In this document: one piece after another, positions 17,628 through 36,111 of the stretch
Layout of the letters: every line of letters starts with the position of its first letter
How positions within the stretch are numbered: the stretch's first letter is position 1
NCBI RefSeq assembly: GCF_002854065.1
Contig: NZ_CP024147.1
Strand: one strand, 5' to 3'
DNA: 64,000 nucleotides
Source: Escherichia coli
GTDB lineage: Bacteria > Pseudomonadota > Gammaproteobacteria > Enterobacterales > Enterobacteriaceae
Program-made: the position numbers and the translations under genes
The notes under the pieces: model-generated
Told to the model about the DNA's origin: nothing
The model's database searches: none
Seen by the model: only the letters and a program-made list of their open reading frames with translations

Positions 17628-19831
17628 AATTTTTCCCCTTTCAGCAGGGTGCTTTGCGCATCACGAGGCTTGATGACATAGCACCAAACTTGCTTACGAC
17701 CATCATGTTCTTCGATATAGACACCCTGCAGCTCCGGTGCAAAACCTGGCAGCAGGTTGATCCCTTCTTCCAGAGCGCTGAAGTAACGCAGAACAGCACC
17801 ACCCCAGATTTCACCCGGAACAACACACAGCACACCCGGAGGATAAGGAAGCGCACCTTCGGCAGCGATACGGCCTTCAGCATCCGGCAGACGAACCAGT
17901 TCCACTTCACCGCGTAAATAGGCGTAGTTGGCTTCTTGCGGATTCATGCTGACGCGTGGGAAGTGCTCCTTACGGAACATCTCTTTTTGCAGTTGTTTCA
18001 CGTTGTGGCGGGCATACAAATCATGCATTTCCTGACACAACTGACGCAGGGTATAACCGGCGTAGCGCTCTTCATGCTGTTTGTAGATGGAAGGTAGCAC
18101 TTCTGCTAATGGCGCGTCGGACTCAAGCAGTTTTTCGAAGCGTACCAGCAGGGCAACAAGTTGCTGAAGTTTGGCCATATCTTCTGCCGGAGTCAGCAGG
18201 AAGAGGATGGAGTTAAGATCGCATTTTTCCGGCACTACGCCATTTTCGCGCAGGAAGTTAGCAAGAATCGTCGCGGGTACACCGAACGCTTCATATTCGC
18301 CGTTACGTGCATCAATACCTGGGGTTGTCAGCAACAGTTTGCATGGATCGACAAAGTATTGATTCTCTGCATAGCCTTCAAAAGAATGCCAGTGTTCCCC
18401 TGGTACAAACTGGAAGAAGCGCAGATCAACCGCAATTTGCGCTGTTTCATACGACTGCCAGGGTTTACCATCCACCAGTTCAGGTATGAACGGACGAATA
18501 TGCTGACAGTTATCGAGGATCAGTTTGCGGGCATTAATGCCATTTACCACACAATCCATCCACATATTACGACCGCTGACACCTTCATGCATTTTGGCGT
18601 TGATATCCAGTGCGGCAAACAGCGGATAGAACGGGCTGGTGGAGGCATGCATCATAAAGGCGTTGTTCATGCGTTTGTGCGGTACATAACGCTGTTGCCC
18701 TTTGATGTGGCTGTCTTTTTTATGGATTTGTGAAGTTTGAGAAAAACCAGCCTGCTGTTTATGTACGGATTGCGTAACCAGAATACCCGGATCGTTCTCA
18801 TTAAGATCCAGCAACAGCGGCGAACAGTCAGCCATCATCGGAATAAACTGTTCATAGCCGACCCATGCGGAATCAAACAGGATGTAGTCACACAGATGAC
18901 CAATTTTATCCACCACCTGGCGGGCGTTATAAATCGTACCGTCGTAGGTGCCTAGCTGAATCACAGCGAGGCGGAACGGACGCGCCTCTTTTGCCCGTTG
19001 CGGTGCAACTTCTGTAATCAGTTCACGCAGATAACTTTCTTCGAAGCAGTGCGCATCAATACCACCGATAAAACCATACGGGTTACGTGCTGTTTCCAGA
19101 TAAACCGGTGTTGCACCAGCCTGTAGCAAGGCCCCGTGGTGGTTAGACTTATGGTTATTGCGGTCAAATAGCACCAGATCACCCGGTGTCAGCAGGGCGT
19201 TTAAAACCACTTTGTTAGAAGATGAAGTACCATTTAAAACGAAGTAGGTTTTATCGGCATTAAACACTTTTGCTGCATGTTGCTGTGCAATGCATGGCGC
19301 GCCTTCGTGAATCAGCAGATCGCCCATCGCGACGTCGGCGTTGCACAAGTCGGCACGGAACAGCGCCTCACCAAAGTATTCCACAAACTGATTCCCCGCC
19401 GGATGGCGACGGAAAAATTCGCCGCCCTGATGACCGGGGCAGTCAAATGCGCTGTTGCCCTGATTGACATAATCGACCAGTGCGCGAAAGAAAGGTGGGC
19501 GCAGTTGAGTTTCATAATGGCTGGCAGCGGTTTCTAACTGACGACCATAAAATTCTTTGCGTGCTTCTCCATGTTCGAAGACACCAGAAATACGTGAAAG
19601 ATATTCTGCTGGTATACGTTCTTCATTTTCCGTTGCAATAAAAACAGGAATGTCATAGCCAGTAGCGTCTATTTCATCGAGTTTTCCACGTTCAACATCA
19701 CTGACTGATAAAATAATGGCGGCAACGTCAATATAATTACTTTCGTCTATATTCACGCATGCACGATGAGTGGAAAAACAATCCGGGCAAGAACGACTAA
19801 CGGCAATTTTTAATTCTGACATTTTGTTCAT
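17624..19831 (-). CDS. speF: inducible ornithine decarboxylase
   Basis: 735-aa ORF of the PLP-dependent Orn/Lys/Arg decarboxylase family; upstream speFL leader present; exact start (MNKMSELK or MSELK) not resolved. Confidence 0.9.
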   Translation of the reverse strand: MNKMSELKIAVSRSCPDCFSTHRACVNIDESNYIDVAAIILSVSDVERGKLDEIDATGYDIPVFIATENEERIPAEYLSRISGVFEHGEARKEFYGRQLETAASHYETQLRPPFFRALVDYVNQGNSAFDCPGHQGGEFFRRHPAGNQFVEYFGEALFRADLCNADVAMGDLLIHEGAPCIAQQHAAKVFNADKTYFVLNGTSSSNKVVLNALLTPGDLVLFDRNNHKSNHHGALLQAGATPVYLETARNPYGFIGGIDAHCFEESYLRELITEVAPQRAKEARPFRLAVIQLGTYDGTIYNARQVVDKIGHLCDYILFDSAWVGYEQFIPMMADCSPLLLDLNENDPGILVTQSVHKQQAGFSQTSQIHKKDSHIKGQQRYVPHKRMNNAFMMHASTSPFYPLFAALDINAKMHEGVSGRNMWMDCVVNGINARKLILDNCQHIRPFIPELVDGKPWQSYETAQIAVDLRFFQFVPGEHWHSFEGYAENQYFVDPCKLLLTTPGIDARNGEYEAFGVPATILANFLRENGVVPEKCDLNSILFLLTPAEDMAKLQQLVALLVRFEKLLESDAPLAEVLPSIYKQHEERYAGYTLRQLCQEMHDLYARHNVKQLQKEMFRKEHFPRVSMNPQEANYAYLRGEVELVRLPDAEGRIAAEGALPYPPGVLCVVPGEIWGGAVLRYFSALEEGINLLPGFAPELQGVYIEEHDGRKQVWCYVIKPRDAQSTLLKGEKL

Positions 19832-28713: not shown

Positions 28714-28920
28714 ATGGAACTCTACAGAGAATATCCTGCATGGCTTATCTTTTTACGCCGTACTTATGCGGTTGCAGCGGGCGTTCTGACGCTGCCTTTC
28801 ATGCTTTTCTGGAAAGACCGCGCCCGCTTTTACAGCTACCTGCACCGCGTCTGGTCGAAAACCAGCGACAAACCGGTGTGGATGGATCAGGCCGAAAAGG
28901 CAACCGGTGATTTTTACTGA
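28714..28920 (+). CDS. ybfA: small inner-membrane protein YbfA (DUF2517)
   Basis: 68-aa [45 protein letters not shown]... Confidence 0.85.
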
Positions 28921-28935
28921 TTGCCTGCGCGCTTA

Positions 28936-28964
28936 AGCCAGCCTCGTATCAGGGGGCTGGTTTA
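28936..28964 (+). terminator. putative ybfA terminator
   Basis: ccagcc...ggctgg hairpin followed by TTT...TTTT. Confidence 0.4.
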
Positions 28965-28977
28965 TGTGTTTTACATC

Positions 28978-29011
28978 AACGTCTTCCATGATAATTAACA
29001 TGGAAGACGTT
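28978..29011. repeat. perfect 13-bp inverted repeat with 8-nt spacer, flanked by direct repeats TTACATC
   Basis: aacgtcttccatg-ataattaa-catggaagacgtt read directly; ttacatc on both sides. Confidence 0.6.
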
Positions 29012-29704
29012 TACATCGTGTTATTCATTTCATCACTGTTTTAGCATCAAGTTTCGATAGTATCCTTTTAAAGGGCGGCTCAGGATGCGGTCGCCTCCAT
29101 TGTTGCTCTAAGCAACTATGTCGTCAGAAATCTTCAGTTAGGTTGCATACTCCATTACACACTTTCCTGAAACCTCAGGGGAAGGTGAGAAAGCCCCTGT
29201 CACTTTTGCTCATTCCAGCATCTAAATAAATTCCGAATTTTGCTATTAACATCGCTACCGCAAGAAAAGCAGATAGTAAAGAGAGTAATATATACTTTAT
29301 TGATATATTAAGAATAATTAATTGTTAACATATCTAATGCAATAAGATGTGTTGTTGTTAATAAAAAGCTTATAGATTTATAGTTAATAATTAAAACGCA
29401 TCCGATATTTCAGCTTTTTCTATGCAAGATACAATTTTATAAGGTGTCCATTTTTATATGGAGGCGGTAGCGTGTCTGTTACTAGTGGTTTTATTTGCAT
29501 GGTGAATATATTGGGATTGTTAAATGCATAACGATGTATCCGTTCTGGTCGTTGTAAACATTGCTAATTGCTTAATATTATTAGTGATTATGGCTGGAAA
29601 GATAAAATGTGTGATAAACGGTGATGGATATCACCTTCATGACTAAAAAATAAATAAAAACCCATCAATAAATAATTCATTTATTAAAAAGGACTCATAC
29701 CAGT

Positions 29705-30157
29705 ATGACGGAGTATTATCTCAATGAAACTGTTGTAACTTTTCCCGGGAATATTATTCAGGACAGTACGATTAATATGCTGCGCCTCAGCGATCCCGAC
29801 GCTGCACTCATTATCAGTCGGGGCCAGATGCAGGAAGGAGACGAATTAGCCTCCCAGATTGAACAGCAAATGAAAAAACTGGAGAAACAGGTAAAGGATC
29901 TTCACTACACGCCAGTTCAGGTAACACGGGTAGGGATTAATGACGGTGAACAAGGGCTGGAAATACAGAGCCAGTTTCTCCGGGGTAACGAGCAGGTGTA
30001 CCAGTGTCAGGTGGCATTTGTATTGCCGGGTGAGCGGGTCATGATGGCCTTCACCTACGCCAGAACCACACCGCTGACCCCGGCAGATATGACGCGCTGG
30101 GCTGAAATTAAAAAGAATCTGCGCTTCAGGATGCGGCAGGAAGCCAGGACGAATTAA
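29705..30157 (+). CDS. Eag-family (DUF1795) chaperone for a prePAAR effector, EagR-like
   Basis: 150-aa ORF MTEYYLNETVVTFPGNIIQDSTINML... immediately upstream (18-bp gap) of an Rhs gene that carries a prePAAR motif and TM regions; size, position and N-terminal pattern fit Eag chaperones. Confidence 0.6.
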   Translation: MTEYYLNETVVTFPGNIIQDSTINMLRLSDPDAALIISRGQMQEGDELASQIEQQMKKLEKQVKDLHYTPVQVTRVGINDGEQGLEIQSQFLRGNEQVYQCQVAFVLPGERVMMAFTYARTTPLTPADMTRWAEIKKNLRFRMRQEARTN

Positions 30158-30175
30158 TCATACAGGGAACGGGAC

Positions 30176-33100
30176 ATGGAAGAGGCATTCTGGGCGGCAA
30201 GACAGGGTGATGCCCTGCTGCATACGTCGTTTATGGCAGATGTGCTGGGGGCGGTGCTGGAGGTGGCCGCAAATGTCGTTATTGATGCTCTCATTGTCGG
30301 CACAACCTCGTTACTGGCGGCGTCAGTGGGGTTCACGATGGGGTGCACGGCCGTCGTGCTGACCGGTTTTGTGGCGGGTGTGGCGATGGTGTACACCGGC
30401 GTGACAGAAAAGGTCAGCGAAGCCTGTTCAGCCCTCGCAGATATGCTTTTCCCGCCTCAGATTGAAGGTTACATCCTCACCGGCTCTGGTGACACATGGA
30501 TCAACAGCAAACCTGCCGCGCGGGCAGCGGCGACTGCGGCATCGCGGCAGGACATTGAGGCGCAGGAGGCGCAGTCGAAGGCGGAACAGGAAGAAGCGCA
30601 GCGTCAGGAGGATGCCAGAACGTTCCGGGATGTGGCCGGGGAATATCTGGAAATGGCGGGGGCCATAGCCCTGGCGGTTAACCCGGTGACAGGGCCTGTG
30701 CTGATGTCCCGGGCGCTGCACGACCAGCTCAGTACGGAAGAAGGGCGTTCTGAAATGGTGGATGGCGTGACACATTTTGTGTCGGAACTATGGCAGCCCA
30801 CTGTGGCCAGTGCGGCCCCGGGCTCCACCCCGACCCCTGACGATAAAATCGACTGCCATAAACATCCTTCCTCACTGACGCAGTTTCTCGCACAAAAAAA
30901 AGCTGCCTTTCTGGATGACCCCCTGGGAACGGCCCTTAACCTGCTGAGTCCGGACGGTATGCTGGAAACCGCCTTTCAGGGAGTGAATGCGGTTATTGGC
31001 AGCATCAGTAATCTGTTCAAAGGCGATGACGAGCCGCCCGCAGCGGAATATATCGCGGAAGGCGCGCGGGATGTGCGTATCAACAGCCAGCCGGCGGCAC
31101 GCAGCGGGGCACGCTGTACCTGCGAGGCCAGGGTGGTGAATGAGCCGGGGAACGGGGCGTTTGTGTCACCGGATGTGCGCATTGGCGGTCCGTTACTGGT
31201 GGTCAGGGATATCAGAAGCGGCAGGTCGCAGATAACCCTGGTGGCAACTGTGGCGCTGATGTTTCTTCGCCCGGGCAAAATGCTTTCTAAAATCGCCTGT
31301 TTTGCTGCCAGTGTCGGGATGAGCATGCTGGCGCAGAAGGCCACCAGAGCCCTTCCGCATCCGGTCAATGCCGCCACCGGGGCCAAATACCTTGCCGATG
31401 ACGATGACTTCGATTTCAGTCTGCCGGGCCACTTTCCGCTGGACTGGCAGCGCGTGTACAGCAGTCGTGACGAACGCACGGAAGGAATGTTTGGTCAGGG
31501 CTGGAGTGTGATGTATGAAGTCAGCCTGGTGCGCACACCGGGTAACGCGGACGAAAACTGCATGACCTTTGTGTCGGGCATGGGGCGACGCCTGGATATG
31601 GAAGCCGTGCTGCCGGGGAGCGGGTTTTACAGCCCCGGCGAAGGACTGGCAGTCCGGCGTGGTGAGCAGGGGCACTGGCTTATCAGCAGCGATGATGGAC
31701 AGTTTTTTCTGTTTGAAGCCGACCCGCACAACCCGCAGCGCCAGCGGCTGAAAATGCTGGGCGACCGTAACAGCAACTGTCTGAATCTGTACTACGACGA
31801 CCGGGGACGTATCACTGAAATCAGCGGCGAACAGCAGCGTCCGTGCATCCGTCTGTATTACGAACTGGCGGCGCATCCCCGGCGGATGACACAGATTTAT
31901 CAGCATTTCCCTGAGACTGCACCTTTACTGCTGCGTCGTTACAGCTATGACGAGGCCGGCCACCTGAACGGCGTGTACGACAGCACGGGGCACCTGCTGC
32001 GTGAGTTTGCTTACGACGAAAACCACTGCATGACGCTGCACCGCCAGCCGGGCGGCGAAGGGTATTATTACCAGTGGGGCTGGTATGACGGTCCGGATGA
32101 TGCGGCGTGGCGGGTAACGGGGCACCACACGGACAGCGGTGAACAGTACCGGCTGGCGTGGGACCTGGCGCAGCGCAGGCTGTGCGTGACGGACGGACTG
32201 GGGCGCACGCGTTATCACCAGTGGGATGCGCAGAATCAGGTGACGGCGTACCAGGACGAAGCCGGACAGGTGACGACATTCCGCTGGAGCGACGAAGAAC
32301 GACTGTTGCTGGGGATGACCGACCCTCAGGGCGGCAAATGGCGCTATGTGTATGACCGGCAGGGGCATATCACGGAGACGCACGACCCGCTGGGGCGGGT
32401 GGCGCAGGCGCAGTGGCACCCGGTGTGGCACCAGCCGGAAACGGAGGTGGACGCGGCGGGAAACAGCTGGCGCTGTGTGTACGATGAACGCGGCAACCTT
32501 CTTGCCGTGACCGACCCGCTGCAGCAGAACACCCGGTATCAGTATGACCACCACGGCCAGGTGGTGCAGATAACGGATGTCCGTGGGGGGAATAAATACC
32601 TTCAGTGGAACGAAGACGGGCAGCTCATGCGGCATACGGACTGTTCCGGCTCGCAGACGGCCTGGTTCTACGACGAACGCACGCGGCTGATACGGATGAC
32701 AGACGCGCAGAGCCACAGCACGCGCTACGGGTATGACGACAGCGGTCATCTGACGGAGGTGATACTGGCGGACGGCCGCACGGTGAATTACCAGTCAGAC
32801 GCGGCGGGCAGGCTGGTGAAGTACACCAGCCCGATGGGGAGGATAACGCGCTGGCAGCGGGACGGGCAGGGCCGGGTGCGCAGCCGGACGGACGCGATGG
32901 GGCGCAGGACGGCGTTCGGGTACGACGCTTACGGGCGTCTGGTCACGCTCACGAACGAGAACGGAGAACGCTACCGGTTCCGCCATGATGTGCTGGACCG
33001 TCTGGCGGAGCAGATAAACCCGGACGGCTGCCGCCAGTCGTACCGCTACAACGCGCTGAACGCGGTCACGGAAGTGGTGTTCACCGGGGACCGGGGCGGT

Positions 33101-34810
33101 GAAATCCGCCACCGGCTGGCGCGTGATGCGGCGGGCCGGCTCACGGCAAAGGAGACAGCCGATGGCCGTACGGAATACGTCCATGATGCGGCTGACCGGC
33201 TACTGGAAATCCGCCGCCGGCGGTCGGATGCCGGGGAAACGGACGCCCCGGAGATTATCCGCTTCAGCTACGACAGACTGGGGCGGATGCTGAGCGAGGA
33301 GACGGCGCAGGGCATCCTGACCCACCAGTACGATGAACTGGGCAACCGGACTGCCACCACCTTTCCGGACGGCAGAACGCAGCGCCATCTGTACTACGGC
33401 AGCGGCCATCTCCAGCAGATAAATCTGGACCGGGAAGTCATCAGCGAGTTCACGCGCGACCACCTGCACCGTGAAGTGCTCAGAAGCCAGGGGCGACTGA
33501 GCACGCGGCAGCTTTACGACCCCGGCGGGCGGCTGAAGCGCAGGGAGACATACAGCGGGATGCGCGGGGTGGTACCGGAGACGTTCACGGACCGGCAGTA
33601 CAGCTACAGTGGCGAGGATGAACTGCTGAAGACGCGGCACAGCCGGCGGGGGGAAACGGATTACTTCTACGACCCCACGGGGCGCATCACGGCGTGTCGT
33701 TCGGAGGATGAGGGGTATCTGGCGAGCTGGCAGTACGACGCGGCGGGAAACCTGCTGGGGAGGCGCGCGGGGGAAAGGGCCACGGCAGAAAACAGCGTGG
33801 TGCCGTTCAACCGGCTGATGTCTTACCGTGGTGTGCACTACCGTTATGACGAATTTGGCCGTGCGGTGGAAAAGGAGGGCCGGAGCGGAACGCAGAGTTA
33901 CCGTTATGATGCGGAACACCGGATGGTGGAAGTGACGACAGCGCGGGGGACATACCGGTATGTGTACGATGCGCTGGGGAGGCGGACGGAAAAACAGCAC
34001 ATCAGCCCTGACGGAAAACCGTACAACCGGACAAAATTTTTATGGGACGGGATGCGGCTGGCGCAGGAGAGCAGGCCGGAGGGGACAGGCAGCCTGTATA
34101 TCTACAGGGACCAGGGGAGTTATGAACCGCTGGCGCGGGTGGATAAGGCGGGGAAAGAGGGACCGAACCGGATACTGTATTTTCACACGGATGTGAACGG
34201 CGCGCCGGAAGAGATGACGGACAGTGACGGGAAAATCGTGTGGGAGACGGGGTATCAGGTCTGGGGTAACACGATACAGGAGAAGGACCACGGCAGGGTG
34301 GAGCAGAACCTGCGCTACCAGGGACAGTACCTCGACAGGGAAACGGGGCTGCACTACAATCTGCACAGGTACTATGATCCGGATGTCGGGCGGTTCATGG
34401 TAACGGATCCGATAGGGCTGCTTGGTGGATTAAACTTATACCAATATGCACCGAATCCGTTGGGGTGGATCGACCCGTTAGGTTTAAAGTGTGGGCAACC
34501 TGAATGGACAAATCATGGATACAAACATTTTCCTCCAAAAAACAAATCATGGAAGGATATAATTAAATCAACAAAATCAGGCCCGGCAAAATATTCTCCC
34601 GATATTGATATTAAAACGCTGGAATACGATGTTTTTAATACAGGCACACCTGTTACCAACGGTAAACCATGGAAAGTAAAAGATATGGGGAAAGTTATTG
34701 GGGCCAGTGAGGGTAAAGAATCTCAATGGGTTCGAGTTGAACTTAGCGGTGGGACAATACATGGACATCCCATATCACTTGATGAATTCCGAAGGCTAAC
34801 AACACCATGA
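30176..34810 (+). CDS. Rhs-family polymorphic toxin, class II prePAAR type VI secretion effector architecture
   Basis: 1544-aa ORF: prePAAR motif AARQGDALLH (aa 7-16), hydrophobic TM region 1 (aa ~20-76), split PAAR-like segments (INSKPAAR, INSQPAARSGARCTC), TM region 2 (aa ~349-390), long YD/RHS repeat core (YDxxGRL repeats), C-terminal PxxxxDPIGLxGGxNxYxYxxNPLGWIDPLGL boundary, then a short variable tip. Confidence 0.9.
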   Translation: MEEAFWAARQGDALLHTSFMADVLGAVLEVAANVVIDALIVGTTSLLAASVGFTMGCTAVVLTGFVAGVAMVYTGVTEKVSEACSALADMLFPPQIEGYILTGSGDTWINSKPAARAAATAASRQDIEAQEAQSKAEQEEAQRQEDARTFRDVAGEYLEMAGAIALAVNPVTGPVLMSRALHDQLSTEEGRSEMVDGVTHFVSELWQPTVASAAPGSTPTPDDKIDCHKHPSSLTQFLAQKKAAFLDDPLGTALNLLSPDGMLETAFQGVNAVIGSISNLFKGDDEPPAAEYIAEGARDVRINSQPAARSGARCTCEARVVNEPGNGAFVSPDVRIGGPLLVVRDIRSGRSQITLVATVALMFLRPGKMLSKIACFAASVGMSMLAQKATRALPHPVNAATGAKYLADDDDFDFSLPGHFPLDWQRVYSSRDERTEGMFGQGWSVMYEVSLVRTPGNADENCMTFVSGMGRRLDMEAVLPGSGFYSPGEGLAVRRGEQGHWLISSDDGQFFLFEADPHNPQRQRLKMLGDRNSNCLNLYYDDRGRITEISGEQQRPCIRLYYELAAHPRRMTQIYQHFPETAPLLLRRYSYDEAGHLNGVYDSTGHLLREFAYDENHCMTLHRQPGGEGYYYQWGWYDGPDDAAWRVTGHHTDSGEQYRLAWDLAQRRLCVTDGLGRTRYHQWDAQNQVTAYQDEAGQVTTFRWSDEERLLLGMTDPQGGKWRYVYDRQGHITETHDPLGRVAQAQWHPVWHQPETEVDAAGNSWRCVYDERGNLLAVTDPLQQNTRYQYDHHGQVVQITDVRGGNKYLQWNEDGQLMRHTDCSGSQTAWFYDERTRLIRMTDAQSHSTRYGYDDSGHLTEVILADGRTVNYQSDAAGRLVKYTSPMGRITRWQRDGQGRVRSRTDAMGRRTAFGYDAYGRLVTLTNENGERYRFRHDVLDRLAEQINPDGCRQSYRYNALNAVTEVVFTGDRGGEIRHRLARDAAGRLTAKETADGRTEYVHDAADRLLEIRRRRSDAGETDAPEIIRFSYDRLGRMLSEETAQGILTHQYDELGNRTATTFPDGRTQRHLYYGSGHLQQINLDREVISEFTRDHLHREVLRSQGRLSTRQLYDPGGRLKRRETYSGMRGVVPETFTDRQYSYSGEDELLKTRHSRRGETDYFYDPTGRITACRSEDEGYLASWQYDAAGNLLGRRAGERATAENSVVPFNRLMSYRGVHYRYDEFGRAVEKEGRSGTQSYRYDAEHRMVEVTTARGTYRYVYDALGRRTEKQHISPDGKPYNRTKFLWDGMRLAQESRPEGTGSLYIYRDQGSYEPLARVDKAGKEGPNRILYFHTDVNGAPEEMTDSDGKIVWETGYQVWGNTIQEKDHGRVEQNLRYQGQYLDRETGLHYNLHRYYDPDVGRFMVTDPIGLLGGLNLYQYAPNPLGWIDPLGLKCGQPEWTNHGYKHFPPKNKSWKDIIKSTKSGPAKYSPDIDIKTLEYDVFNTGTPVTNGKPWKVKDMGKVIGASEGKESQWVRVELSGGTIHGHPISLDEFRRLTTP
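30194..30223 (+). other. prePAAR motif (AARxxDxxxH)
   Basis: Codons 7-16 encode AARQGDALLH. Confidence 0.7.
34487..34810 (+). other. Rhs C-terminal polymorphic toxin domain (family not recognised)
   Basis: 107 codons after DPLGL: KCGQPEWTNHGYKHFPPKNKSWKDIIKSTKSGPAKYSPDIDIKTLEYDVFNTGTPVTNGKPWKVKDMGKVIGASEGKESQWVRVELSGGTIHGHPISLDEFRRLTTP; abrupt drop in GC relative to the Rhs core. Confidence 0.7.
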
Positions 34811-35100
34811 ACATTGATTTCTTAGGAAAAAAAGGGAATGTAATTTTTAATGACTTCTCCCTGAAACAAAGCATCCCTCTTAATGAACAGCGAGATGAAC
34901 TTAAGGAAGATATGCTCCAGGTTGAATATCCTGGTGGGTATCTTTTGGATGTTGGGTGGCGACCATCTTTTAATTTAAATGGGAATTTTTATATTTGTTT
35001 AATAAAGGATTTTGATTGGGATACTCCCATTTATAATGGTTCTGCGAAAGATATTGTCTCATTATTATTTGAAATTAACCAAGCTATAAATAAACTTTAA
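34807..35100 (+). CDS. putative cognate immunity protein of the Rhs toxin tip
   Basis: 97-aa AT-rich ORF whose ATG overlaps the rhs stop (ATGA); the usual toxin-immunity arrangement in Rhs loci; no family recognised. Confidence 0.65.
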   Translation: MNIDFLGKKGNVIFNDFSLKQSIPLNEQRDELKEDMLQVEYPGGYLLDVGWRPSFNLNGNFYICLIKDFDWDTPIYNGSAKDIVSLLFEINQAINKL

Positions 35101-35138
35101 AAAAGCCGGGAAGAAAATAACATCTTCCCGGCTTTTTT
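35099..35138. terminator. bidirectional intrinsic terminator shared by the immunity gene and the convergent SymE-like gene
   Basis: A6-gccgggaag-(loop)-cttcccggc-T6. Confidence 0.8.
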
Positions 35139-35143
35139 ATTAT

Positions 35144-35473
35144 TTAACTCTCGTCCAGCACACTAAACATCCCGTTCCGCATCCCCTTAACCACCTGTTT
35201 AACCTGATAAAGTTCCTCCCGCAGCTCCTGCACCTCGTCACTGTCAGCGATAATGGTCAGGCACCCCTCCGAAATCTTCACCGTGACACCCCGCCCGGTA
35301 TCAAATCCGGCCTCTTTCAGCCAGTCGCCCTTAAGGTTCAGGCAGGGGTGTCGTGAGTAGTACGTGGTCATGTAGGTTTTGCTGTTTATGTGGCGGGCTC
35401 TGACATAGCCGACTTTATAGCGGCGCTGTGTTTTGGAAATGGTGACTTCTGGCGTAATATCGTGTTCAGCCAT
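35144..35473 (-). CDS. SymE-like toxin (AbrB/SpoVT-fold, type I toxin-antitoxin family)
   Basis: 109-aa ORF; segment YYSRHPCLNLKGDWLKEAGFDTGRGVTVKISEGCLTI resembles the SymE signature as I recall it (xLKGxWLxxAGFxTG...EGC). Confidence 0.6.
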   Translation of the reverse strand: MAEHDITPEVTISKTQRRYKVGYVRARHINSKTYMTTYYSRHPCLNLKGDWLKEAGFDTGRGVTVKISEGCLTIIADSDEVQELREELYQVKQVVKGMRNGMFSVLDES

Positions 35474-35601
35474 GATTAACTACCTTGATGAGTTGCTTGC
35501 GGGGAGCGCGCTTTCGTAATCTTGCCCTGCTAGCGGATTAACTTCACAAAAATCATTTCCCAACGTCTACACTTACTCCTGTTAATATCTCAGGAGCAGT
35601 A

Positions 35602-36111
35602 ATGAATCAGCAACGATTTGATGACAGCACCCTAATCCGTATCTTCGCCCTTCATGAGTTACATCGACTGAAAGAACATGGCTTAACGCGCGGGGCGCTT
35701 CTCGATTATCACAGCCGCTATAAACTCGTCTTTCTGGCTCATTCCCAGCCGGAATACCGCAAACTTGGCCCGTTCGTGGCTGATATTCACCAGTGGCAAA
35801 ATCTGGATGACTATTACAACCAGTACCGCCAACGCGTAGTTGTTTTGCTTTCTCACCCCGCCAACCGACGTGACCACACCAACGTTTTGATGCACGTTCA
35901 GGGTTATTTTCGCCCGCATATTGATTCCACAGAACGCCAGCAGCTGGCTGCGCTTATCGACAGTTATCGCCGTGGCGAGCAACCACTTCTTGCGCCGCTG
36001 ATGCGTATCAAACACTATATGGCGCTTTATCCTGACGCCTGGCTTTCAGGGCAGCGTTATTTCGAACTTTGGCCGCGTGTGATTAACTTGCGCCATTCAG
36101 GAGTTTTATGA
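35602..36111 (+). CDS. ybgA: DUF1722-family protein YbgA
   Basis: 169-aa ORF; overlaps the phr start by 4 nt (ybgA-phr operon). Confidence 0.88.
   Translation: MNQQRFDDSTLIRIFALHELHRLKEHGLTRGALLDYHSRYKLVFLAHSQPEYRKLGPFVADIHQWQNLDDYYNQYRQRVVVLLSHPANRRDHTNVLMHVQGYFRPHIDSTERQQLAALIDSYRRGEQPLLAPLMRIKHYMALYPDAWLSGQRYFELWPRVINLRHSGVL

What the first reader, a model, noticed from the sequence alone, without database searches (positions are those of the whole stretch)
28921..35601. Rhs island boundaries: the ybfA-ybgA gap is an integration hotspot carrying different cargo from K-12
Core genes ybfA (ends 28920) and ybgA (starts 35602) bracket 6.7 kb of accessory DNA: an AT-rich leader, the chaperone gene, rhs, the immunity gene and the SymE-like gene. 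From memory the K-12 genome carries the RhsC element with ybfB/ybfC/ybfD-type H-repeat and orphan genes at this site. Here there are no orphan toxin/immunity modules or H-repeat genes, but there are a chaperone and a SymE-like gene. Same hotspot, different cargo.
Basis: partly seen in the sequence, partly recalled or inferred. Interest (0 to 1): 0.5.

Follow-up and report, generated by a model that had tools for sequence, protein, structure and literature searches.

The report
Alternative Rhs toxin island beside ybfA
Between the E. coli core genes ybfA and ybgA this strain carries a Salmonella-like, type VI secretion Rhs toxin island instead of the K-12 RhsC element. That kind of swap at this site was reported in 2009, but the small SymE-like gene at the island's end looks like the stump of a mobile element that may deliver new Rhs toxin tips.

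Summary
ybfA ends at 28920 and ybgA starts at 35602. Between them lie an AT-rich leader, an Eag/DUF1795 chaperone gene, a 1544-aa prePAAR-PAAR-Rhs gene, a 97-aa putative immunity gene and a SymE-family gene on the minus strand.

The island shares no nucleotide homology with K-12 rhsC; the two Rhs proteins are 28% identical. Across 5,426 complete E. coli genomes the site has three states:
- Empty: 1,311 genomes.
- RhsC-type: about 3,500-3,750 genomes.
- This Eag-Rhs type: about 100-212 genomes.

The eag-rhs genes are 80% identical in DNA to Salmonella SPI-6 vgrG-eag-rhs. The leader retains the last 37 bp of a vgrG gene. The right junction is a 33-bp ISEc1 (H-repeat) end plus 37 bp that K-12 also has, so one cargo probably replaced the other inside an existing island.

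Jackson et al. 2009 reported a Salmonella-like rhs at this position in Shigella flexneri, so the core finding is a new member of a known kind.

One lead is less ordinary. In other genomes the same toxin tip and SymE gene continue into a 6.6-kb unit: HTH repressor, primase, XerC-type recombinase, an rhs 3' stub, a tip and an immunity gene. This unit recurs in tandem behind Rhs genes in seven genera. Whether it swaps Rhs tips site-specifically is unproven.

The parts
28714..28920 (+). ybfA, the left core flank. Homology to K-12 and to empty-site genomes runs to 28924 (TGATTGC).
28925..29704 (.). AT-rich leader (34.6% GC), specific to this island type at this site. It replaces the native ybfA terminator with its own hairpin at 28934-28964 and holds a 12-bp inverted repeat within 28978-29011. 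In other strains ISEc1 inserts at 29444-29454 with an 11-bp target duplication.
   Evidence: The leader is present in 212 of 5,426 genomes, in three sequence variants.
29620..29704 (+). Relic of a vgrG 3' end (about 37 bp) plus the vgrG-eag spacer.
   Evidence: 86-89% identical to the end of vgrG and the spacer at vgrG-linked eag-rhs loci of strains M23314 and R12. The same stretch hit a Vgr gene (H284).
29705..30157 (+). Eag-type (DUF1795/DcrB family) effector chaperone gene.
   Evidence: Pfam PF08786, E=3.6e-19. Closest relatives are Salmonella enterica proteins (82% and 71% identity) encoded directly downstream of vgrG.
30176..34810 (+). rhs gene, 1544 aa. Features: prePAAR motif AARQGDALLH (aa 7-16, nt 30194-30223); one hydrophobic region (aa 18-77, nt 30227-30406); PAAR (aa 291-321); DUF6531; YD-repeat cage; core end PLGWIDPLGL (aa 1428-1437, ending at nt 34486); C-terminal toxin (aa 1438-1544, nt 34487-34807).
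   Evidence: The core matches P. protegens RhsA (7Q97) at 1055 bits. [quoted passage not shown] Nucleotides 29705-34487 are 80% identical to Salmonella vgrG-linked eag-rhs.
34406..34419 (+). GATCCGATAGGGCT, the first DPIGL codons of the hyperconserved core end. This is the point (called X in the report) where rhs sequences stop being conserved and start to vary together with the toxin tip. It is the candidate recombination core.
34807..35100 (+). Putative immunity gene (97 aa, no family match). Its start overlaps the rhs stop codon.
   Evidence: It travels with the same toxin tip in 15 genomes at two chromosomal loci.
35098..35139 (.). Bidirectional terminator-like hairpin (17-bp stem) between the immunity gene and the SymE-like gene. 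It is the first conserved sequence after every variable tip-plus-immunity pair.
35144..35473 (-). SymE-family gene (109 aa, intact ORF).
   Evidence: Pfam PF08845, E=1.4e-19. NCBIfam SymE scores 50.7 bits, below its 132-bit cut-off.
35274..35402 (+). Match to Rfam isrA, antisense to the middle of the SymE-like coding sequence.
   Evidence: 112.9 bits against a gathering score of 51. The same family matches inside SymE genes of Salmonella SPI-6 loci. IsrA is a 423-nt cis-antisense RNA of STM0294.1n (PMC2330248).
35415..35508 (-). Conserved block: the first 18 codons of symE, its ribosome-binding site and the proximal 5' UTR. This is the region that pairs with the antisense RNA SymR in the K-12 SymE system. 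The upstream covarying hairpin and the HTH gene found in intact elements are missing here.
35496..35528 (+). Last 33 bp of an ISEc1/H-repeat right end. It is joined to the symE 5' UTR across an 11/13-nt microhomology, CTTG[CT]GG[GT]GAGCG.
   Evidence: 97% identical to the right terminus of the ISEc1 copy in strain M18. The same sequence follows ybfL and ybfD in K-12. Strain MSHS 133 has a complete ISEc1 to the right of symE.
35529..35565 (.). 37 bp of island DNA shared with the K-12 RhsC-type island and absent from empty-site genomes.
35602..36111 (+). ybgA, the right core flank. Core homology with empty-site genomes starts at about 35566.

Best explanation
The ybfA-ybgA gap is the long-known polymorphic Rhs locus "position 5" (kdpA-phr). 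In this strain it holds a self-contained type VI secretion effector module, not the clade I RhsC element.

How the module works (inferred from homology, not tested here):
- The Eag chaperone shields the prePAAR and transmembrane N-terminus of the Rhs protein.
- The PAAR domain mounts the protein on a VgrG spike encoded elsewhere in the genome.
- The YD-repeat cage encloses a 107-aa C-terminal toxin, predicted to have an RNase fold, which is released after cleavage at DPLGL.
- The overlapping 97-aa gene gives self-immunity.

How the island arose:
- Its lineage is that of the Salmonella SPI-6 vgrG-eag-rhs locus. It arrived without vgrG; only the last 37 bp of vgrG remain.
- It replaced the RhsC-type cargo inside an island that already ended in an H-repeat. 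The right junction is a deletion scar joining the symE 5' UTR to the last 33 bp of ISEc1.
- The SymE-like gene is not a free-standing addition. It is the surviving left end of a 6.6-kb element (SymE, HTH repressor, primase, XerC-type recombinase) that in other genomes follows the same toxin tip.

Shown directly: gene identities, breakpoints, relics, population frequencies, and the physical link to the element in other genomes. Inferred: effector function, direction of the replacement, and the origin of symE as an element remnant.
For: - Gene content and domains.
- No nucleotide homology to K-12 rhsC, and 28% protein identity.
- Three site states with counts.
- Salmonella affinity: 80% nucleotide identity over eag-rhs, with the order VgrG-Eag-Rhs-immunity-SymE in SPI-6 next to the saf genes.
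- vgrG relic.
- ISEc1 relic and shared right junction.
- Core related to P. protegens RhsA (7Q97); toxin about 88% identical to the S. bongori Rhs toxin (8QJC), which was purified with its immunity protein and predicted to be an RNase.
- The same tip, immunity gene, hairpin, symE and 5' block are 94% identical at the yddH locus of LI60C3 and R12. There homology ends exactly at window 35508 and the HTH-primase-XerC genes follow.
Against: - No T6SS or cognate vgrG was looked for in the host genome, so the effector may be unusable in this strain.
- Toxin activity and immunity are inferred by homology only, and the RNase assignment for the S. bongori homologue is itself a structure prediction.
- The direction of change (RhsC-type to Eag-type) rests on one shared 70-bp junction. 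ISEc1 inserting twice at the same spot is not excluded.
- The symE ORF is intact and conserved in about 206 genomes. That fits a functional gene at least as well as a decaying remnant.
Confidence: 0.75

Rival explanations
1. Independent insertion. The Eag-Rhs island and the RhsC element each entered an originally empty ybfA-ybgA gap, making the gap a true integration hotspot with repeated de novo acquisition.
For: An empty state exists in 24% of genomes, with an intact ybfA terminator and a 100-bp spacer. The left junctions of the two island types differ: K-12 keeps the ybfA terminator and the window does not.
Against: Both island types end with the same ISEc1 right end plus 37 bp, which the empty site lacks. 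The island edges carry no integrase, att-like repeats or tRNA gene. Jackson et al. inferred an ancestral rhs at this position from E. albertii.
Confidence: 0.15
2. Stand-alone SymE module. The SymE-like gene with its antisense RNA is an ordinary type I toxin-antitoxin or nucleoid-associated protein module. It belongs to the Rhs cassette, for example to stabilise it or to serve as a right-hand homology arm for cassette exchange, and has no origin in a mobile element.
For: - The ORF is intact.
- Every tip-plus-immunity pair in E. coli and Salmonella arrays is followed by the hairpin and a SymE gene or fragment, even where no recombinase is present.
- The 5' block resembles the K-12 symE/SymR layout.
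Against: In intact units in six genera symE sits 71-86 bp downstream of an HTH gene on the same strand, within a fixed HTH-primase-XerC unit. In the window that upstream part is cut off by an ISEc1 end at a microhomology. The same tip is followed by the full unit elsewhere.
Confidence: 0.3
3. Homologous recombination only. Toxin tips at this locus change purely by RecA-dependent recombination between rhs core sequences (classical C-terminal displacement). The XerC/primase units are unrelated integrative elements that target the symE 5' region and merely sit among the cassettes.
For: - Orphans with long core fragments of 0.5-2.4 kb exist (PapRG-06-5, GZ2408C, M23314, Salmonella).
- The one-unit difference between R12 and LI60C3 maps to a homologous crossover about 700 bp upstream of X.
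- The single unit in S10 is a mosaic of the two KW21 units.
- Arrays end with a SymE gene, as expected if attB lies beside symE.
Against: - Every unit carries a 77-bp rhs stub, a tip and an immunity gene directly after XerC, the small ORF and the arm. This is an odd cargo for an unrelated element.
- The 35 nt left of X are 71% conserved across six genera, against 36% for the next 35 nt.
- One tip (with its 77 bp) occurs fused to a full rhs core in one strain and to the element arm in others, which places the exchange within 15 bp of X.
- Conservation of the symE 5' block is explained by its antisense-RNA function.
Confidence: 0.35

Closest known systems
K-12 RhsC element (clade I rhs at "position 5", kdpA-phr)
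   Same: Same chromosomal site between ybfA and ybgA. Same right-hand 70 bp (ISEc1/H-repeat end plus 37 bp). Same general layout: a GC-rich rhs core followed by an AT-rich tip and a small downstream gene.
   Different: There is no nucleotide homology in the cargo, and the Rhs proteins are 28% identical. K-12 RhsC has no chaperone gene and no Pfam-detectable PAAR domain (its first 31 aa align to the end of the window protein's PAAR region), and its locus has no SymE gene. K-12 carries the orphan ybfO/ybfC and three H-repeat genes or pseudogenes.
Salmonella-like clade III rhs at position 5 in Shigella flexneri (Jackson et al. 2009, PMC2935791)
   Same: Same site, and the same idea of a non-clade-I rhs with Salmonella affinity replacing the usual E. 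coli one. Partial Eag proteins 84% identical to the window's are named as Shigella flexneri in the protein database.
   Different: The Sh. flexneri locus itself could not be aligned here because Shigella is not in the genome collection. I did not place the window's core on that paper's clade tree.
Salmonella enterica SPI-6 vgrG-eag-rhs main and orphan locus
   Same: 80% nucleotide identity from the eag start to the end of the rhs core. Same gene order Eag-Rhs-immunity-SymE(-). Arrays of orphan tips are each followed by the hairpin and a SymE gene or fragment, with isrA matches inside the SymE genes.
   Different: The window lacks vgrG (37-bp relic only), sits outside any T6SS cluster, and has a single tip with no orphans.
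Class I prePAAR Rhs effectors with Eag chaperones (Pseudomonas protegens RhsA-EagR1, PDB 7Q97; the class definition is from my own knowledge of Ahmad et al. 2020)
   Same: prePAAR motif, one N-terminal hydrophobic region, PAAR, Rhs cage, and a DUF1795 gene immediately upstream.
   Different: No adjacent vgrG. The toxin domain is different. Secretion was not tested.
Salmonella bongori PAAR-Rhs toxin (PDB 8QJC; bioRxiv 10.1101/2024.02.26.582050)
   Same: The C-terminal 104 residues are about 88% identical. That toxin needs co-expressed immunity protein to be produced and is predicted to have an RNase fold.
   Different: The Rhs cores are much less similar (438 bits over about 700 aa), so the same tip sits on different core lineages.
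SymE/SymR of E. coli K-12 and IsrA/STM0294.1n of Salmonella
   Same: SymE_toxin domain. The 5' UTR layout with ribosome-binding region is conserved across the family. An antisense RNA family (isrA) matches the opposite strand.
   Different: No LexA box and no Rfam SymR match. The upstream hairpin and promoter region are replaced by an ISEc1 end. NCBIfam SymE scores below its cut-off.
Integrons, and the recombinase-associated immunity-gene arrays of Bacteroidales (rAID-1; from my own knowledge of Ross et al. 2019). These are analogues for the novel reading only.
   Same: A tyrosine recombinase gene next to arrays of short toxin or immunity cassettes that share a short conserved junction sequence.
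   Different: Here the recombinase comes with a primase and a repressor in a repeated 6.6-kb unit. The conserved junction lies inside a protein-coding motif of rhs. No recombination activity has been shown.

Membership tests
Class I prePAAR T6SS Rhs effector with Eag chaperone | prePAAR motif AARxxDxxxH at the N-terminus | tested here: met
   AARQGDALLH at aa 7-16.
Class I prePAAR T6SS Rhs effector with Eag chaperone | A single N-terminal transmembrane region, followed by a PAAR domain | tested here: met
   One hydrophobic stretch at aa 18-77 by Kyte-Doolittle scan. PAAR_motif scores 34.1 bits against a cut-off of 27. The hydropathy scan is crude and is not a topology prediction.
Class I prePAAR T6SS Rhs effector with Eag chaperone | YD-repeat cage ending in PxxxxDPxGL, followed by a variable toxin | tested here: met
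   RHS_repeat at E=2e-82 in 11 stretches plus the RHS core domain. PLGWIDPLGL lies at aa 1428-1437 and is followed by 107 aa.
Class I prePAAR T6SS Rhs effector with Eag chaperone | DUF1795 (Eag) chaperone gene immediately upstream | tested here: met
   PF08786 at E=3.6e-19, ending 18 bp upstream of the rhs start.
Class I prePAAR T6SS Rhs effector with Eag chaperone | A cognate VgrG and a functional T6SS in the same genome | not tested
   Only a 37-bp vgrG relic lies in the locus. The rest of the host genome was not examined.
Class I prePAAR T6SS Rhs effector with Eag chaperone | Toxicity of the C-terminal domain, neutralised by the downstream gene product | not testable with these tools
   Homology only: about 88% identity to the S. 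bongori toxin, which required its immunity protein for expression.
K-12-type RhsC element (clade I) | rhs core homologous at the DNA level to rhsA/B/C/D | tested here: not met
   No blastn match at E<=1e-5; 28% protein identity.
K-12-type RhsC element (clade I) | Location between ybfA and ybgA | tested here: met
K-12-type RhsC element (clade I) | Associated H-repeat (ISEc1/ISAs1-family) copies | tested here: inconclusive
   The window has no transposase gene but does have a 33-bp right-end relic. Complete copies are present in sister strains.
SymE/SymR type I toxin-antitoxin system | SymE_toxin (AbrB-like) domain protein | tested here: met
   PF08845 at 70.4 bits against a cut-off of 29. The NCBIfam equivalog scores below its cut-off, 50.7 against 132.
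SymE/SymR type I toxin-antitoxin system | A cis-antisense RNA covering the ribosome-binding site and start codon | tested here: inconclusive
   There is no Rfam SymR match at E<=1. The pairing region is kept, but the hairpin conserved in intact family members is replaced by the ISEc1 end. An isrA match lies antisense to the mid-CDS. No expression data are available.
SymE/SymR type I toxin-antitoxin system | SOS (LexA) control of symE | tested here: not met
   No CTG-N10-CAG motif in 35474-35601 on either strand.
Integrative element with a tyrosine recombinase (the SymE-HTH-primase-XerC unit) | A recombinase gene within the feature | tested here: not met
   Absent from the window. It is present next to the same tip and symE in LI60C3, R12 and others. 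The window holds at most a remnant.
Integrative element with a tyrosine recombinase (the SymE-HTH-primase-XerC unit) | Defined att sites and demonstrated excision or integration | tested here: inconclusive
   A candidate core, GAYCCGATAGGGCT, has a conserved 35-nt arm. The only natural gain or loss of a unit that I could map was a homologous crossover.

The most novel reading that the evidence does not exclude
The SymE-like gene and the sharp tip boundary at GATCCGATAGGGCT (34406-34419) may be footprints of a widespread family of about 6.6-kb integrative elements in Enterobacterales. Each element encodes an RstR-like HTH repressor, a DnaG-type primase with a P-loop domain, a XerC-subfamily recombinase (NCBIfam NF002331) and SymE with its antisense RNA. 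Each also carries a 77-bp rhs 3' stub, a toxin tip and its immunity gene.

On this reading the elements insert by site-specific recombination at the first DPxGL codons of a resident rhs gene. Insertion fuses the new toxin in frame and pushes the old tip downstream. That would make the long-unexplained "C-terminal displacement" of Rhs toxins an element-borne, recombinase-driven process. The window's island would be an integrated tip whose delivering element was later deleted.
Probability: 0.35. Interest if true: 0.75.

Novelty: new member of a known kind. Interest (0 to 1): 0.45.

Why it matters
Taken alone, the locus is another allele of a known variable Rhs site. It is useful mainly as a clean example of a minority E. 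coli lineage (2-4% of complete genomes) that carries a Salmonella-type T6SS effector where most strains carry RhsC or nothing.

The follow-up has wider reach. How Rhs genes acquire new toxin tips has been described only as "C-terminal displacement", with no known vehicle. A recurrent recombinase-primase-SymE unit that always carries an rhs stub, a tip and an immunity gene, with a conserved junction inside the DPxGL motif, gives a concrete model that can be tested experimentally. It would also reinterpret the "sRNAs" IsrA and Ssr1, and the many SymE genes annotated next to Rhs and CdiA loci.

Tried and rejected
- **Scan of species-representative genomes.** A scan with the Eag protein returned only Escherichia sp. 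E1V33.
- **Does the S10 single unit match unit 1 or unit 2 of KW21?** This would have told whether a tip is linked to the element on its right or on its left. The S10 unit is a mosaic, so the test is inconclusive.
- **R12 versus LI60C3 as a before-and-after pair.** They differ by one unit, but the crossover lies about 700 bp upstream of X inside a 1-kb repeat. This is homologous recombination and gives no evidence for a site-specific event.
- **Circularity of unit-length contigs.** Draft contigs of 6.4-6.8 kb show no terminal overlaps. One Citrobacter contig merely starts at X-1.
- **LexA box and SymR.** Neither was found upstream of the SymE-like gene.
- **The symE 5' block as an att site.** Its conservation is better explained by the antisense-RNA and 5' UTR function seen across genera and in K-12. 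This reading is weakened but not excluded.
- **A 39-nt leader match in one O157:H7 genome.** It was not found in the O157 locus I had fetched, and I did not pursue it.
- **Pfam, NCBIfam and PDB searches with the immunity protein and the toxin.** No family was found for either. The only toxin match is 8QJC.
- **Literature searches.** "IsrA" plus "SymE" was swamped by unrelated words. "Rhs, XerC, primase, toxin" returned one irrelevant paper. Steele et al. 2017 mention integrase-like genes near Rhs loci in bee-gut bacteria and speculate about capture of Rhs sequences. The held library is incomplete, so an earlier description of the element cannot be excluded.
Full report
**What is there.** The window is E. 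coli and is 100% identical to strain CUWW06.
- an AT-rich leader, 28925-29704;
- a DcrB/DUF1795 gene, 29705-30157;
- a 1544-aa rhs gene, 30176-34810;
- a 97-aa ORF overlapping the rhs stop codon, 34807-35100;
- a SymE-family ORF on the minus strand, 35144-35473.

ybfA lies to the left and ybgA-phrB to the right. Pfam confirms all domain assignments. GC content is 34.6% in the leader, 61.7% in the rhs core and 35.7% in the tip plus immunity gene.

**Comparison with K-12.** K-12 has ybfA-rhsC-ybfB-ybfO-ybfC-ybfQ-ybfL-ybfD-ybgA at this site. blastn between the two loci aligns only the flanks. Homology stops at window 28924, four bases after the ybfA stop codon, and resumes at 35496. The rhs genes share no detectable DNA similarity, and the proteins are 28% identical. 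K-12 RhsC has no chaperone gene and no Pfam-detectable PAAR domain.

**Population picture.** The ybfA-ybgA gap has three states among 5,426 complete E. coli genomes.
- Empty: 1,311 genomes (24%), including Nissle 1917. These have a 100-bp spacer that contains the native ybfA terminator.
- RhsC-type: the K-12-type ybfA-rhsC junction is present in roughly 3,500-3,750 genomes, including O157:H7. The raw count of 3,779 includes some matches to other rhs loci.
- Eag-Rhs type: 95-100 genomes match at least 80% of the window's island. The leader is found in 212 genomes in three sequence variants: nine at 95% identity or more, 97 at 90-95% (about 91% in the rows listed) and 106 at 80-90% (83-86% in the rows listed). 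A strain with the most divergent leader variant still has the island at this site.

The exact toxin tip of the window occurs in only 15 genomes. Seven have it at this locus, as the main tip or as a displaced orphan. Eight have it at a chromosomal position of about 2.3-2.6 Mb; in the two I inspected (LI60C3 and R12) this is the yddH locus.

**What the island is.** The Rhs protein has these features:
- a prePAAR motif (AARQGDALLH, aa 7-16);
- a single hydrophobic region (aa 18-77);
- a PAAR domain and DUF6531;
- a YD-repeat cage;
- the core-end motif PLGWIDPLGL, followed by a 107-aa toxin.

With the DUF1795 gene directly upstream, this is the architecture of class I prePAAR T6SS effectors with Eag chaperones (class definition from my own knowledge). 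The best solved relative of the core is P. protegens RhsA (7Q97, 1055 bits). [quoted passage not shown] That protein could be produced only together with its immunity protein, and the toxin was predicted, not shown, to have an RNase fold. The S. bongori core is much less similar, so the same tip rides on different core lineages.

**Origin.** The closest Eag proteins outside E. coli are from Salmonella enterica, at 82% and 71% identity. Their loci read VgrG-Eag-Rhs-immunity, followed by orphan tips and SymE genes, next to the saf fimbrial genes of SPI-6. Window 29705-34487 is 80% identical in DNA to these loci, and similarity ends where the tip begins. The last 85 bp of the leader are 86-89% identical to the final 37 bp of vgrG plus the vgrG-eag spacer at vgrG-linked E. 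coli copies of this rhs lineage. The island is therefore a vgrG-less derivative of a vgrG-eag-rhs locus.

This agrees with Jackson et al. 2009. They defined this site as rhs "position 5" (kdpA-phr) and noted that it holds clade I rhs in all strains except Shigella flexneri. That species has a clade III gene clustering with Salmonella homologues, which they read as replacement by lateral transfer (PMC2935791). The central point of the finding is thus already in the literature.

**Boundaries and history.**
- Left edge: all sequenced examples of this island type share the junction TGATTGC|CTGCGCGC. The native ybfA terminator is replaced by a different hairpin at 28934-28964.
- Right edge: 35496-35528 is the last 33 bp of ISEc1, the H-repeat. 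It is 97% identical to the terminus of a complete ISEc1 that has inserted in the leader of strain M18 with an 11-bp target duplication. The same sequence follows ybfL and ybfD in K-12.
- The next 37 bp (35529-35565) are shared with K-12 and absent from empty sites.
- The relic joins the symE 5' UTR across an 11/13-nt microhomology. Strain MSHS 133 still has a full ISEc1 to the right of symE.

The simplest history is that an island ending in an H-repeat already sat next to ybgA. The Eag-Rhs cargo came to lie to its left, and a short-homology deletion later removed everything between the symE leader and the IS end. The island edges carry no integrase, tRNA gene or flanking repeat. "Hotspot" therefore means a long-lived variable locus with internal turnover, not a site of repeated site-specific insertion.

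**The SymE-like gene.** Rfam places isrA (112.9 bits against a gathering score of 51) at 35274-35402, antisense to the coding sequence, and gives a partial match to Shigella Ssr1.
- IsrA is a 423-nt Salmonella RNA that is cis-antisense to the 5' end of STM0294.1n in SPI-6, and the two are inversely expressed (PMC2330248).
- isrA matches fall inside SymE genes of Salmonella and E. coli Rhs arrays.
- Ssr1 was mapped next to an Rhs-family gene in S. flexneri (PMC4782007).

These published "sRNAs" therefore look like antisense transcripts of SymE-family genes that follow Rhs tips.

In strain PapRG-06-5 a second tip, immunity gene and SymE set lies between the main rhs and the window's tip, which is displaced there as an orphan. 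Each tip thus has its own SymE gene.

**A recurrent element.** In GZ2408C, KW21 and S10 the same ybfA-ybgA island continues after a SymE gene into one or two tandem units of about 6.6 kb. Each unit contains, in order:
- an HTH_3 repressor gene on the symE strand;
- a 910-aa DnaG-type primase with Toprim and P-loop regions;
- a XerC-type tyrosine recombinase;
- a 157-160-aa ORF with no family match;
- a 77-bp fragment of the rhs core end;
- a tip, an immunity gene, the terminator hairpin and the next SymE gene.

Sixty-five E. coli genomes carry the unit. It also occurs at the yddH locus (LI60C3, R12) and at a vgrG-linked locus (M23314).

At the yddH locus the window's own tip, immunity gene, hairpin, SymE gene and 5' block are 94% identical to the window. 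Homology ends exactly at window 35508, where the HTH-primase-XerC genes begin. The window's SymE gene is therefore best read as the left end of such a unit whose remainder was lost.

Homologous recombinases (57-76% identity) sit in the same arrangement, in tandem and downstream of PAAR or Eag Rhs genes, in Salmonella SPI-6, Erwinia pyrifoliae, Xenorhabdus nematophila, Dickeya zeae and Lonsdalea. A Citrobacter draft contig carries a single unit. Their cassettes include recognisable toxin and immunity families: Colicin-DNase/WHH with SUKH, AHH with Imm43, Ntox8, and Endonuclease_NS_2 with Imm-NTF2.

The recombinase matches NCBIfam NF002331 at 531 bits. The HTH protein is closest to RstR-type repressors.

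**The junction.** All rhs fragments in the units start at the position equivalent to window 34406, the first D of DPIGL...DPLGL. I call this position X.
- A 14-nt core, GAYCCGATAGGGCT, is common to all copies.
- To its left lies either the rhs core, which is identical among the main genes, or an element-specific arm.
- To its right, the remaining 63 bp of the motif co-vary with the tip. For example, the 77 bp and tip of OkiPb01678's main rhs are identical to those behind the element arm in GZ2408C and KW21. That places the exchange within about 15 bp of X.
- The 35-nt arm (TAAAAAGTAYGAC, then N8, then GGATCGTCCCYAT) averages 71% identity across six genera, against 36% for the preceding 35 nt.
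- In several genera CCCTAT-GACCCG-ATAGGG forms an inverted repeat around the D-P codons.

These features fit an attP-like site but do not prove one.

**Evidence against over-reading this.**
- The only natural unit gain or loss I could map (R12 versus LI60C3) is a homologous crossover about 700 bp upstream of X.
- The single unit in S10 is a mosaic of the two KW21 units.
- Orphans with long core fragments show that classical homologous displacement also operates.
- Tandem arrays are circular permutations, so their internal structure cannot say whether att lies at X or beside symE.
- Arrays end in a SymE gene without a following unit. In the three arrays examined an IS or IS fragment abuts that SymE gene. 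This could be truncation or coincidence.
- The strong conservation of the symE 5' block is explained by function. The HTH-symE spacer carries a covarying hairpin and a conserved ribosome-binding leader in all genera, and it mirrors the K-12 symE 5' UTR, against which SymR is transcribed.

**Verdict.** At the level stated, a different Rhs lineage at the ybfA-ybgA site, it is a new member of a known kind with published precedent.

The added value of the follow-up is threefold:
- precise relics (vgrG, ISEc1) that show replacement within an old island;
- population frequencies for the three states of the site;
- a lead that the SymE-like gene marks a family of recombinase-primase elements carrying Rhs tips.

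If these elements prove to integrate at the DPxGL codons, they would supply the missing vehicle for Rhs toxin diversification. I put that reading at about 35%.

Noticed in passing
window 35274-35402 (+) and 35103-35443 (+): Rfam isrA (112.9 bits) and a partial Ssr1 match lie antisense to the SymE-like coding sequence. isrA also matches inside SymE genes of Salmonella and E. coli Rhs arrays. The published "sRNAs" IsrA (Salmonella) and Ssr1 (Shigella, mapped next to an Rhs gene) therefore look like antisense transcripts of SymE-family genes.
   Followed up: partly
window 35466-35528, compared with L007:2770-2844 (ISEc1 right end): The last 75 bp or so of ISEc1, which encode the transposase C-terminus, resemble the symE start and 5' UTR read on the opposite strand (CAGCCATG...AACTAYCT...CTTGNGGNGAGCG) over about 50 nt. 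This goes beyond the 13-nt microhomology at the junction. It could be chance or an old capture; I cannot tell.
   Followed up: no
window 28978-29011: A perfect 12-bp inverted repeat with an 8-nt loop (ACGTCTTCCATG ATAATTAA CATGGAAGACGT) sits in the AT-rich leader and is conserved in all strains with this island type. Its function is unknown.
   Followed up: no
CUWW06 chromosome (NZ_CP182139.1) 2316071-2316206, outside the window: The window's own strain has a 136-bp match (97.8% identity) to the start of the element probe (L018:7448-7583, the symE-proximal end of a unit including the 3' end of the HTH gene) at another chromosomal position with no annotated feature. This suggests a second remnant of such a unit elsewhere in the genome.
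   Followed up: no
window about 35602-36000 (ybgA), compared with empty-site genomes: ybgA of empty-site (Nissle-like) genomes is only about 90-94% identical to ybgA of island-bearing genomes. Identity between the window and O157:H7 falls from 99-100% in the distal flanks to 96-98% next to the island. The flanks seem to carry old haplotypes linked to the state of the site.
   Followed up: partly
window about 44000 onward (right flank), compared with L004, L018 and L021: Spans of the 25-kb query differ among genomes partly because the ybgOPQD fimbrial operon between abrB and gltA is present, degraded or absent in different strains. This is a second variable region close to the Rhs site.
   Followed up: no
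L020:7156-7312 (E. coli M23314) and L016:15800-15960 (Salmonella): Some orphan tips follow the previous immunity gene directly, with no SymE gene or element between them. Their left flank is a degenerate, frame-shifted remnant of a divergent rhs core (YD...G spacing preserved) rather than the element arm. At least two kinds of tip junction therefore exist.
   Followed up: partly
L024 (Erwinia pyrifoliae) 18089-18605: One unit of the recombinase-primase-SymE array carries a RelB/ParE toxin-antitoxin pair where other units carry an Rhs tip and immunity gene. Published genome notes also mention SymE genes among hecA/cdiA fragments in Dickeya and beside cdiA in Xenorhabdus (PMC8386352, PMC11566119). 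The cargo may not be limited to Rhs tips.
   Followed up: no
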